Below, one piece after another: positions 55,281 through 55,652 of a DNA stretch of 64,000 nucleotides (positions are counted from its first letter, which is position 1; the number at the start of each line of letters is the position of its first letter). The notes below the pieces were generated by a model that saw only the letters and a program-made list of their open reading frames with translations, made no database searches and was not told the DNA's origin. The stretch is from sequence record MN850587.1; one strand, written 5' to 3'. Origin of the DNA: Escherichia phage mistaenkt. The position numbers were made by a program, and so were the translations under genes.

Positions 55281-55652
55281 TTATTTTTTCAGAGCCGCTA
55301 CAGCAGAGAACGTTGGTTTGTTCTCTTGTGGTTTGTCTCCACCTTTCTCACCCTCTTTCTTAGTATCCGCTGCAATAGCTTTCATCTCACCTGCTGAGTG
55401 AGTCATGATAGTTTTGCCAGCTTCCATCATTGACTTCAGGTTTACATCATCAGCCGTCAAACCAAACTCTGCAAGTTTTACAGGGTCTCTGGTAACAATC
55501 GCCTCAAACAACTTTGCAGCATACTCTGCTGAGTTGTCAATGGTTAATTGTGCTTTTACGAGAGAACTCTTGTTACGTGAACCTTTTGGTCTTCCAGATG
55601 GGTTACCAGACTGGCCTTTCTTGAATTGGCCTTTGTTTGTACGTTTTGTCAT
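55281..55652 (-). CDS. Small basic DNA-binding-type protein (123 aa)
   Basis: N-terminus KGQFKKGQSGNPSGRPKGSRNKS; acidic/charged C-terminus. Confidence 0.45.
   Translation of the reverse strand: MTKRTNKGQFKKGQSGNPSGRPKGSRNKSSLVKAQLTIDNSAEYAAKLFEAIVTRDPVKLAEFGLTADDVNLKSMMEAGKTIMTHSAGEMKAIAADTKKEGEKGGDKPQENKPTFSAVAALKK

What the first reader, a model, noticed from the sequence alone, without database searches (positions are those of the whole stretch)
55281..55652. Small basic protein with GNPSGRPKG N-terminal motif, separated from terL by the tRNA island
The N-terminal KGQSGNPSGRPKGSRNKS motif resembles a glycine/proline-rich DNA-binding arm that I recall from some phage small terminase-like or DNA-binding proteins, but the gene lies about 8 kb from terL, across the tRNA island and vWA gene. 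It could be a displaced small terminase, or a DNA-binding protein for the adjacent repeat-bearing intergenic region.
Basis: inference. Interest (0 to 1): 0.35.

Follow-up and report, generated by a model that had tools for sequence, protein, structure and literature searches.

The report
Likely missing small terminase of Felix-O1-like phages
This small basic protein of a Felix-O1-like phage is most likely the DNA-recognition (small) subunit of the genome-packaging enzyme, which this phage group was thought to lack; it sits 8 kb from its partner gene because a dispensable tRNA island lies between them.

Summary
The ORF is real: 55281-55652 on the minus strand, 123 aa, strong ribosome-binding site, motif KGQSGNPSGRPKGSRNKS at residues 12-29. 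The window is a Felix-O1-like myovirus (Ounavirinae, Suspvirus-like).

The protein belongs to Pfam DUF5681 and PHROG 4114, both of unknown function. It matches no known small-terminase (TerS) family by sequence or predicted fold.

Indirect evidence favours TerS:
- In viral contigs, DUF5681 genes almost always abut or overlap the large-terminase gene terL (62 of 66 loci).
- Among 50 distant relatives of this phage's TerL, all 21 DUF5681 hits lie upstream of terL on the same strand, 0 to 7.7 kb away.
- The Bas63 homologue is as essential as portal and capsid. The intervening vWA gene and tRNAs are dispensable.
- In Felix O1 it is gene 41, first in the packaging/morphogenesis unit and peaking in the same time class as terL. 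It was not among the proteins reported from virions.
- The literature says Felix O1 has no TerS.

The motif resembles the second AT-hook of HMGA1, suggesting minor-groove DNA binding.

Caveats: homology to the terL-adjacent proteins covers only residues 6-42, and in bacterial genomes most motif proteins are not next to terL.

TerS confidence is about 0.6. In passing, I found a conserved 11-bp-phased TAACA array in the terminal-repeat region (63380-63959), a candidate recognition site.

The parts
55281..55652 (-). Gene for the 123-aa DUF5681 protein, the candidate small terminase subunit (homologue of Felix O1 gene 41 and Bas63 gene 129)
   Evidence: ORF; Pfam DUF5681 E=4e-13; PHROG 4114 E=1e-72; Bas63 homologue essential
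55566..55634 (-). Codons for residues 7-29, the basic Gly/Pro-rich arm KGQFKKGQSGNPSGRPKGSRNKS with an AT-hook-like GRP core. Predicted disordered.
   Evidence: In A1 (17 sequences) K12, G13, S15, G16, N17, P18, G20, R21, P22, G24, S25 and N27 are invariant; in the 62-sequence A3 G13, N17, P18 and G20 stay invariant and the others are at least 90% conserved. Best PDB profile match is HMGA1 AT-hook 2, PRGRPKGSKNK (E=0.34). AF2 shows no secondary structure for residues 1-27.
55284..55571 (-). Codons for residues 28-123: helix 28-54, short helix 57-61, helix 72-100 (predicted helical hairpin, putative oligomerisation core), then a disordered tail 101-123 ending in the KPTFxxVA motif conserved in Ounavirinae
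   Evidence: AF2 model, mean pLDDT 68; tail motif conservation in alignment A7
55658..55663 (-). Shine-Dalgarno AAGGAG, 5 nt upstream of the ATG
   Evidence: Read from the sequence
55653..55900 (.). Divergent intergenic region, strongly conserved, with CTT[CT]TAAG repeats and palindromes. It holds the promoter region of the leftward packaging/morphogenesis unit (equivalent to Felix O1 P41).
   Evidence: Felix O1 paper PMC3185647
53785..55200 (-). DUF2828/DUF7788 vWA-type gene (PHROG 850, 'RNA-binding protein'), part of the dispensable insert between the candidate terS and terL
   Evidence: Bas63 gene 130 fitness is positive, i.e. non-essential
47417..53618 (-). tRNA island (24 ARAGORN tRNAs, an HNH endonuclease at 50277-50729 and small ORFs) separating the candidate terS from terL
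   Evidence: the Bas63 tRNAs that were scored are almost all non-essential
46995..47195 (-). 66-aa acidic ORF directly upstream of terL (PHROG 4397, unknown function). Rival TerS candidate or accessory factor.
   Evidence: no PhageMaP data for Bas63 gene 1
45372..46973 (-). terL, large terminase (533 aa from ATG 46973, with GGAGG Shine-Dalgarno at 46980-46984)
   Evidence: Pfam Terminase_6N and Terminase_6C; PHROG 979; start codon read
63380..63959 (.). Region homologous to the 581-bp direct terminal repeat of phage Pr103Blw. The physical genome end maps to about 63959. It carries 27 TAACA/TGTTA motifs, mostly 11 bp apart. Candidate terminase recognition array (inferred).

Best explanation
The protein is most likely the small terminase subunit (TerS) of this Felix-O1-like phage.

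**Proposed mechanism (inferred unless marked).**
- The disordered, strongly basic N-terminal arm carries an AT-hook-like GRP core (GNPSGRPKGSRNK) and contacts the DNA minor groove.
- The two long predicted helices (28-54 and 72-100) form a hairpin that oligomerises, as in other TerS rings.
- The flexible C-terminal tail, with its conserved KPTFxxVA motif, recruits TerL.
- The complex marks concatemeric DNA for cutting at the direct terminal repeat. A plausible target is the conserved 11-bp-phased TAACA array at 63380-63959.
- terS was probably once close to terL. The present 8.3-kb separation reflects a dispensable block between them (the vWA gene, tRNAs and an HNH endonuclease).

**Shown here or in cited papers.**
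- DUF5681 membership.
- The synteny statistics.
- Essentiality of the Bas63 homologue.
- For the Felix O1 homologue: its position in the transcription unit, its expression class, and that it is not listed among virion proteins.
- The motif's resemblance to an AT-hook.
- Conservation of the TAACA array.

**Not shown.** DNA binding, oligomerisation, TerL binding, and the role of the array.
For: 1. **Viral synteny.** Two distant homologues, P0040 and P0042, overlap the terL start by 20 nt. In 66 non-Felix IMG/VR loci the next ORF starts between -104 and +1 nt in about 60 loci, and 62 of 66 of those ORFs fall in two terminase clusters. Pfam on the 66: Terminase_6N in 53, Terminase_3 in 52, T7-type in 7.
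2. **Isolated phages.** In Leptospira phage LE4 the gene overlaps terL. In Salmonella phage STGO-35-1 (47,483 bp, re-oriented to start at terL) the DUF5681 gene is the last CDS, at 46,936-47,355.
3. **Same TerL lineage.** The window TerL is 37% identical to phiPMW TerL (E=7e-89) and 34% to Barba12A TerL (E=6e-80). Both phages carry a DUF5681-type gene on the same strand, 0.73 and 1.4 kb upstream.
4. **TerL-relative survey.** In 50 viral contigs with TerL 34-41% identical, a DUF5681 HMM hit 21 loci. All 21 hits are upstream of terL on the same strand, at gaps from -1 nt to 7.7 kb. None lies downstream or on the other strand within 10 kb.
5. **Essentiality.** PhageMaP fitness for Bas63 gene 129 is -3.1/-3.2/-3.5 in MG1655. 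Portal scores -3.4/-2.7/-4.1 and TerL -1.9/-2.8/-2.6. Gene 130 and the scored tRNAs are almost all positive (bioRxiv 10.1101/2024.10.10.617714).
6. **Felix O1 paper (PMC3185647).** No TerS was found. Genes 41-79 form the packaging/morphogenesis transcription unit, and the homologue at 21665-22033 is its first gene, gene 41. ORFs 41 and 52 (terL) both peak at 25 min. Gene 41 is not among the virion proteins reported under the paper's stringent mass-spectrometry criteria. The related phage V22 is also reported to lack a TerS.
7. **Architecture.** Basic disordered arm, helical hairpin and flexible tail, which is compatible with a minimal TerS.
8. **Arm similarity.** The best PDB profile match is HMGA1 AT-hook 2. 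The family profile also hits proteins with tandem RGRPKGSKNK repeats.
Against: - No match to any known TerS family in Pfam, PHROGs, NCBIfam or PDB sequences, and no Foldseek match for either model.
- hhalign between the Felix-type and the terL-adjacent marine-type alignments gives 98.7% probability but covers only 37 columns (residues 6-42). The link therefore rests on the arm motif, which also occurs on transposases.
- In bacterial genomes only about 13 of 68 loci have terL just downstream, so the motif alone does not imply TerS.
- The viral survey is dominated by one large clade: 65 of 77 proteins link at 50% identity.
- Within the Felix TerL lineage, one or two small non-conserved ORFs usually lie between the DUF5681 gene and terL. 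Here the 66-aa ORF abuts terL and has no essentiality data.
- The gene is 7.7 kb from the terminal repeat rather than beside it.
- The Barba protein has a degenerate motif and falls below the Pfam threshold.
Confidence: 0.6

Rival explanations
1. It is an essential DNA-binding regulator rather than a packaging protein. Examples would be an activator or architectural factor for the divergent promoters in the conserved intergenic region next to it, or a nucleoid-type or replication factor. It would bind AT-rich DNA through the arm.
For: - It lies next to an unusually conserved intergenic region with CTT[CT]TAAG repeats and palindromes.
- The arm motif occurs in non-terminase settings: DDE transposases and bacterial loci without terL.
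- How Felix O1 times its transcription is unknown.
- Essentiality fits this reading equally well.
Against: - It does not explain why DUF5681 genes in phages sit at or overlapping terL.
- It does not explain why all 21 hits near related TerLs are upstream and co-oriented.
- The intergenic repeats lack the TAACA motif.
- No HTH or other regulator domain was found.
Confidence: 0.2
2. It is an accessory packaging factor (for example a DNA-bending or site-marking cofactor, like IHF or gpFI for lambda). The true TerS would be another small protein, most plausibly the 66-aa ORF at 46995-47195 that abuts terL.
For: - The 66-aa ORF occupies the canonical position and is conserved in Felix-like phages (PHROG 4397).
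- BASEL genomes were linearised at the small-terminase gene or at the first gene of its operon, and the Bas63 record starts with this ORF.
- Related TerL lineages keep about 0.5 kb of small ORFs between the DUF5681 gene and terL.
Against: - The 66-aa product is acidic (pI 4.8), has no DNA-binding features and matches no family.
- It has no homologue among the spacer ORFs of phiPMW or Barba12A, whereas the DUF5681 gene is the conserved element.
- In the marine-type contigs, LE4 and STGO-35-1 there is no room for another TerS between the DUF5681 gene and terL.
Confidence: 0.12
3. It is a virion-associated internal or DNA-bound protein, packaged with the genome.
For: The DUF5681 protein of Salmonella phage STGO-35-1 was detected in purified virions by mass spectrometry (2 peptides, 19% coverage).
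Against: - Felix O1 virion proteomics reported 16-17 structural proteins under stringent criteria, and gene 41 is not among them.
- Two peptides could be carry-over.
- The position at terL is not typical of internal proteins.
Confidence: 0.03

Closest known systems
Classical phage small terminases (P22 gp3, Sf6 gp1, SPP1 G1P, lambda Nu1, T4 gp16)
   Same: - Small protein (about 100-160 aa), encoded upstream of and co-oriented with terL.
- N-terminal DNA-contacting part, central helical region suited to ring formation, flexible C-terminal tail.
- Essential, non-structural, and expressed with terL.

The general TerS architecture is from established knowledge of these families, not tested here.
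   Different: - No sequence, profile or fold match to any of them.
- No helix-turn-helix; the DNA-contacting part is a disordered Gly/Pro/basic arm.
- The gene is 8.3 kb from terL.
Pfam PF18932 (DUF5681) and PHROG 4114
   Same: Confident member of both. The family is large: 11,851 clusters at 50% identity with E<=0.001.
   Different: - Both families are annotated 'unknown function', and none of the 120 best family members carries a terminase name.
- Family-wide similarity is essentially the arm plus the first helix.
- Bacterial members often lie outside terminase contexts.
AT-hook (HMGA1 second AT-hook, PRGRPKGSKNK; PDB 2EZD)
   Same: - GRPKGS(R/K)N(K/R) is nearly identical to the core and C-terminal extension of HMGA1 AT-hook 2.
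- The DUF5681 profile scores highly on proteins with tandem canonical RGRPKGSKNK repeats.
- The segment is predicted disordered and strongly basic.
   Different: - The residue before the GRP core is S/N/A here, not the first Arg of RGRP.
- An extra invariant SGNP precedes the core.
- The PDB match is not statistically significant (E=0.34).
- Minor-groove binding is untested.
Terminase recognition arrays (lambda cosB R sites, SPP1 pacL/pacR repeats)
   Same: The terminal-repeat region carries a dense, conserved, helically phased repeat array right next to the physical genome end.
   Different: No evidence that terminase binds it. The motif (TAACA at 11-bp spacing) and the direct-terminal-repeat setting differ from those systems. 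The comparison rests on general knowledge.

Membership tests
Pfam DUF5681 (PF18932) | Profile match above the gathering score | tested here: met
   50.1 bits against a 27.5-bit cutoff, E=4.2e-13, residues 7-77
PHROG 4114 | Full-length profile match | tested here: met
   E=1.1e-72, residues 1-123 on profile positions 1-123 of 123; annotated unknown function
Small terminase subunit (functional class) | Sequence or profile match to a described TerS family | tested here: not met
   No TerS family in Pfam, PHROGs, NCBIfam or PDB sequences
Small terminase subunit (functional class) | Fold match to a solved TerS structure | tested here: inconclusive
   Foldseek against PDB gave nothing below E=0.4 for either AF2 model. 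The models are monomers of moderate confidence (pLDDT 68) and simple helical folds.
Small terminase subunit (functional class) | Gene immediately upstream of, and co-oriented with, terL | tested here: inconclusive
   In this window the gene is co-oriented and upstream but 8.3 kb away. Homologues abut terL in 62 of 66 viral loci. All 21 hits near related TerLs are upstream and co-oriented, at 0-7.7 kb.
Small terminase subunit (functional class) | Essential for phage growth, non-structural, expressed with the packaging genes | tested here: met
   From the literature, not my own experiment. Bas63 gene 129 fitness is -3.1 to -3.5 in MG1655. Felix O1 gene 41 is not among the reported virion proteins and peaks at 25 min, like terL.
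Small terminase subunit (functional class) | Forms an oligomeric ring, binds TerL and packaging-site DNA | not testable with these tools
   No multimer prediction or experiment was available
AT-hook motif | GRP core flanked by basic residues in a disordered segment | tested here: met
   G20-R21-P22 flanked by K11, K12, K23, R26 and K28; no secondary structure predicted for residues 1-27
AT-hook motif | Canonical R-G-R-P core (Arg before the Gly) | tested here: not met
   Position 19 is S here and S/N/A/K/L in relatives
AT-hook motif | Match to a curated AT-hook model | tested here: inconclusive
   No Pfam AT_hook hit at E<=10. The same scan also reported none for P0050/P0059/P0067, which carry canonical RGRPKGSKNK repeats, so the test has no power.
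AT-hook motif | Binds the minor groove of AT-rich DNA | not testable with these tools
   Needs EMSA, footprinting or NMR

The most novel reading that the evidence does not exclude
DUF5681 would define a large, unrecognised class of small terminases, with thousands of clusters in phages and prophages. These would read DNA through an AT-hook-like minor-groove arm instead of a helix-turn-helix. In Felix-O1-like phages a ring of such arms would dock onto the 11-bp-phased TAACA array in the terminal repeat to position TerL for the terminal cut. This would fill the 'missing TerS' noted for Felix O1, V22, Barba-type and related myoviruses.
Probability: 0.3. Interest if true: 0.65.

Novelty: new variant of a known kind. 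Interest (0 to 1): 0.5.

Why it matters
- **A gap in the literature.** Felix O1 and relatives, which are widely used for Salmonella and E. coli typing and biocontrol, are repeatedly described as having only a large terminase (PMC3185647, PMC7289586). Some authors have suggested an alternative packaging mechanism.
- **A testable candidate.** A concrete TerS candidate that is essential, together with a candidate DNA target in the terminal repeat, makes that question directly testable.
- **Annotation.** If confirmed, thousands of 'DUF5681 / hypothetical' genes next to terL in viromes would gain a function.
- **Mechanism.** It would add a non-HTH, AT-hook-like mode of packaging-site recognition.
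- **Genome organisation.** It would show that terS and terL can be separated by a large accessory island.

Tried and rejected
- **Intergenic region as the terminal repeat or pac site: rejected.** The Pr103Blw 581-bp terminal repeat maps to 63380-63959, 7.7 kb away. Seven independent records end at about 63959.
- **PC79-13 record ends as physical termini: rejected.** The 127-bp 'repeat_region' at both ends of a record marked circular looks like an assembly overlap.
- **The 66-aa ORF as a read-through N-terminus of TerL: rejected.** It is in frame with terL, and the PHROG 979 profile has 80 extra N-terminal positions. However, terL has its own GGAGG and ATG at 46973, and the ORF matches a separate PHROG.
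- **Searches that found nothing useful:** Foldseek of both AF2 models against PDB, the PDB sequence/profile search and NCBIfam.
- **Pfam AT_hook test: no power**.
- **Rfam on 46.5-64 kb:** tRNAs only.
- **tblastn with the Barba protein:** found only Barba phages, so I could not check phage V22.
- **Single-protein TerL locus scan:** returned only Felix-like phages. I repeated it with a three-sequence alignment.
- **Literature:** searches for 'AT-hook' with 'small terminase', and for DUF5681, found no functional study.

Full report
**1. What is there**

The window is a Felix-O1-like myovirus. It is 95-98.5% identical over the 5-kb stretch 53000-58000 to Salmonella phage PC79-13 and Escherichia phages SUSP1/SUSP2 (Ounavirinae, Suspvirus), and about 83% identical to Felixounavirus.

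The reported ORF exists at 55281-55652 on the minus strand: 123 aa with an ATG start. From the sequence, an AAGGAG Shine-Dalgarno lies 5 nt upstream.

The motif KGQSGNPSGRPKGSRNKS is residues 12-29. The protein is basic overall (pI 9.8), but the charge sits in the first 30 residues (pI 12, against 6.8 for the rest).

On the same strand, reading downstream, come:
- the DUF2828/DUF7788 vWA-type gene at 53785-55200;
- 24 tRNAs with an HNH endonuclease at 47417-53618;
- a 66-aa ORF at 46995-47195;
- terL (Terminase_6N/6C, ATG at 46973);
- a Mu-type portal gene.

**2. Family**

The protein is a confident member of Pfam DUF5681 (E=4e-13, above the gathering score) and of PHROG 4114 (E=1e-72). Both are annotated as unknown function.

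NCBIfam has nothing. A profile search of PDB sequences has no significant hit. Foldseek of two AlphaFold models against PDB finds nothing. It therefore cannot be filed in any described small-terminase family.

The family is very large: 11,851 clusters at 50% identity with E<=0.001. None of the 120 best members carries a functional name from any source.

**3. Genomic association with terL**

*Viral contigs.* Two distant homologues found by protein search overlap the start of terL by 20 nt, with no other small ORF available.

A motif-based scan of IMG/VR gave 74 non-Felix loci. The motif ORF has a median length of 112 aa over the 77 ORFs scored, which include six Felix-like ones. In the 66 loci with a downstream ORF, that ORF starts between -104 and +1 nt in about 60. 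Sixty-two of the 66 fall in two terminase clusters. Pfam finds Terminase_6N in 53, Terminase_3 in 52 and T7-type in 7.

*Isolated phages.* The same holds for Leptospira phage LE4. In Salmonella phage STGO-35-1 the DUF5681 gene is the last CDS of a genome re-oriented to begin at terL.

*Caveat.* This sample is dominated by one clade. There are 20 clusters at 70% identity, but 65 of 77 proteins link at 50%.

**4. The Felix TerL lineage**

The window's TerL is 37% identical to that of Pseudomonas phage phiPMW (E=7e-89) and 34% to Rheinheimera phage Barba12A (E=6e-80). Both phages carry a DUF5681-type gene on the same strand, 0.73 and 1.4 kb upstream of terL. The Barba protein has a degenerate motif and is sub-threshold in Pfam.

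I then fetched 50 viral contigs whose TerL is 34-41% identical to this one, with 10 kb on each side, and searched all six frames with a DUF5681 HMM. Twenty-one loci had a hit. All 21 hits are upstream of terL on the same strand, at gaps from -1 nt to 7.7 kb. Most are about 0.5-0.8 kb, with others at 1.4, 1.7, 4.3 and 7.7 kb. No hit lies downstream or on the other strand.

This series of spacings fits an originally terL-proximal gene separated by insertions. The 8.3-kb spacing here is just beyond the 7.7-kb upper end of that series.

The small ORFs in the spacers are not conserved between phiPMW, Barba12A and this phage. The DUF5681-type gene is the conserved element.

**5. Functional data from the literature**

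*PhageMaP* (bioRxiv 10.1101/2024.10.10.617714) scored the Felixounavirus Bas63.
- Gene 129, the homologue, has fitness -3.1/-3.2/-3.5 in MG1655 and -1.5/-0.9/-1.4 in S17.
- This is in the range of portal, major capsid protein and TerL.
- Gene 130 (the vWA gene) and almost all scored tRNAs are positive, meaning dispensable.
- Gene 1, the 66-aa ORF, has no data.

*The Felix O1 genome paper* (PMC3185647):
- It defines genes 41-79 as the packaging/morphogenesis transcription unit, with a host-type promoter P41.
- ORFs 41, 42 and 52 (terL) all peak at 25 min.
- Gene 41 is not among the virion proteins reported under its stringent mass-spectrometry criteria.
- The homologue lies at 21665-22033 in that genome, just downstream of P41 (21515-21541), so it is gene 41.

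*The Alteromonas phage V22 paper* (PMC7289586) also reports no TerS for a phage with a Barba-like TerL, and suggests an alternative packaging mechanism.

A TerS for this lineage is therefore a recognised gap.

**6. Anatomy and likely mechanism**

AlphaFold (34-sequence alignment, mean pLDDT 68) predicts:
- an unstructured arm, residues 1-27;
- helix 28-54, a short helix 57-61 and helix 72-100;
- an unstructured tail, residues 101-123.

The tail ends in KPTFxxVA, which is conserved across Ounavirinae.

In the 17-sequence alignment the arm is invariant at K12, G13, S15, G16, N17, P18, G20, R21, P22, G24, S25 and N27. In the 62-sequence alignment G13, N17, P18 and G20 stay invariant and the others are at least 90% conserved.

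The best PDB profile match, not significant at E=0.34, is the second AT-hook of HMGA1: PRGRPKGSKNK against PnGRPKGSkNr. The family profile also scores strongly on proteins with 5-9 tandem RGRPKGSKNK repeats, one of them a DDE transposase.

I therefore read the arm as an AT-hook-like, minor-groove DNA-binding element. It is not canonical, because the Arg before the GRP core is missing and an invariant SGNP is added.

The inferred model is a helical-hairpin oligomer that presents several such arms to DNA and a flexible tail to TerL. None of these steps has been shown.

**7. A candidate DNA target (found in passing)**

The 581-bp direct terminal repeat annotated in phage Pr103Blw (PMC8303462) maps to window 63380-63959. 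Seven independent records end at about 63959, and six of them match the query at two places in the record, as expected for a terminal repeat.

This region holds 27 TAACA/TGTTA motifs. The window-wide mean is 1.9 per 580 bp (sd 2.3). Thirteen of the 21 same-strand spacings are exactly 11 bp.

Next to the end there are six direct TAACA units at 11-bp spacing. They are followed by three inverted TGTTAAG units and then GGGGC at the terminus.

Across seven Ounavirinae:
- 87% of motif columns are invariant, against 58% of other columns (Mann-Whitney p=1e-10);
- length differences come in 11-bp units.

Genes on both sides appear to converge on this region, so a promoter role seems unlikely.

It is a plausible terminase recognition array, but binding by this protein is speculation. 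The intergenic repeats next to the gene use a different motif.

**8. Weaknesses**

- hhalign between the Felix-type and the terL-adjacent marine-type alignments is confident (98.7%, E=4e-16) but covers only residues 6-42. The two AF2 models differ after the first helix.
- The arm is evidently a portable module. In one-genome-per-species bacterial contigs only about 13 of 68 loci have terL just downstream, and others sit beside transposases, restriction-modification genes or housekeeping genes.
- DUF5681 membership alone therefore supports DNA binding, not TerS. The TerS call rests on lineage-specific synteny, essentiality, expression, not being reported in virions, and the lack of any other candidate.
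- The 66-aa acidic ORF abutting terL (pI 4.8, PHROG 4397) remains a possible TerS or accessory factor.

**9. Verdict**

- The most likely reading is the missing small terminase of Felix-O1-like phages, displaced from terL by a dispensable tRNA/vWA island. It carries an AT-hook-like arm instead of an HTH. Confidence is about 0.6.
- The rivals are an essential regulator or architectural DNA-binding protein (0.2), an accessory packaging factor with another protein as TerS (0.12), and a virion-internal protein (0.03).
- Relative to known systems it would be a new variant of a known kind.
- Interest is moderate (0.5). The question is niche but explicitly open, and it becomes directly testable with the candidate protein and candidate site identified here.

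Noticed in passing
window 63380-63959 (array extends from about 63210): Dense array of TAACA/TGTTA motifs (27 copies, against a window mean of 1.9 per 580 bp), mostly at exact 11-bp spacing. It lies in the region homologous to the Pr103Blw direct terminal repeat and ends at the physical genome terminus (about 63959). Motif columns are more conserved than spacers across seven Ounavirinae, and indels come in 11-bp units.
   Followed up: partly
window 55653-55900: A 721-bp stretch centred on this divergent intergenic region is more conserved (about 91.5%) than the surrounding 5 kb (about 83.5%). The intergenic part contains 4 CTT[CT]TAAG copies and a perfect TCTTAAAAG/CTTTTAAGA palindrome. 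It is probably an operator/promoter region, equivalent to Felix O1 P41.
   Followed up: partly
window 53785-55200 (-): A DUF2828/DUF7788 vWA-type gene (PHROG 850, 'RNA-binding protein') sits at the head of the tRNA island. Its Bas63 homologue (gene 130) is non-essential in every host sheet I read. Rfam found no Y-RNA-like partner nearby, only tRNAs.
   Followed up: partly
window 53463-53534 (-) and 52230-52283 (-): Rfam finds a full tRNA (53.7 bits) that ARAGORN did not list, probably the tRNA-Glu annotated in SUSP1. It also finds a truncated tRNA-like match (31 bits, model positions 9-63).
   Followed up: no
window 46974-47195 (-): The 66-aa acidic ORF is in the same frame as terL, separated by one stop codon and seven codons. 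terL has its own Shine-Dalgarno and ATG, so this is probably coincidence. Read-through was not tested across relatives.
   Followed up: partly
L093 6389-6532 (Rheinheimera phage Barba12A gp093): This 47-aa ORF (MGRPKTQNK...ILVIGGGV) looks like the missing N-terminus, including the start of the Walker A region, of the annotated TerL, which begins at the equivalent of Felix TerL residue 105. Barba terL may be split or mis-annotated.
   Followed up: no
L089 1-127 and L090 2761-2887 (Salmonella phage PC79-13, OR687644.2): The 127-bp 'repeat_region' at both ends of a record marked circular looks like an assembler k-mer overlap, not a terminal repeat. The true repeat homologue lies a few hundred bases inside the record.
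   Followed up: partly
proteins P0050, P0059, P0067: Long proteins, one with a DDE transposase domain, carry 5-9 tandem canonical AT-hooks (RGRPKGSKNK, followed by TLAKEQ- or TLEREA-type helix starts). They score strongly against the DUF5681 profile, so the arm-plus-helix-start unit is a mobile DNA-binding module.
   Followed up: partly
window 50277-50729 (-): An HNH homing-type endonuclease lies inside the tRNA island, which fits the island being a mobile or accretive region.
   Followed up: no
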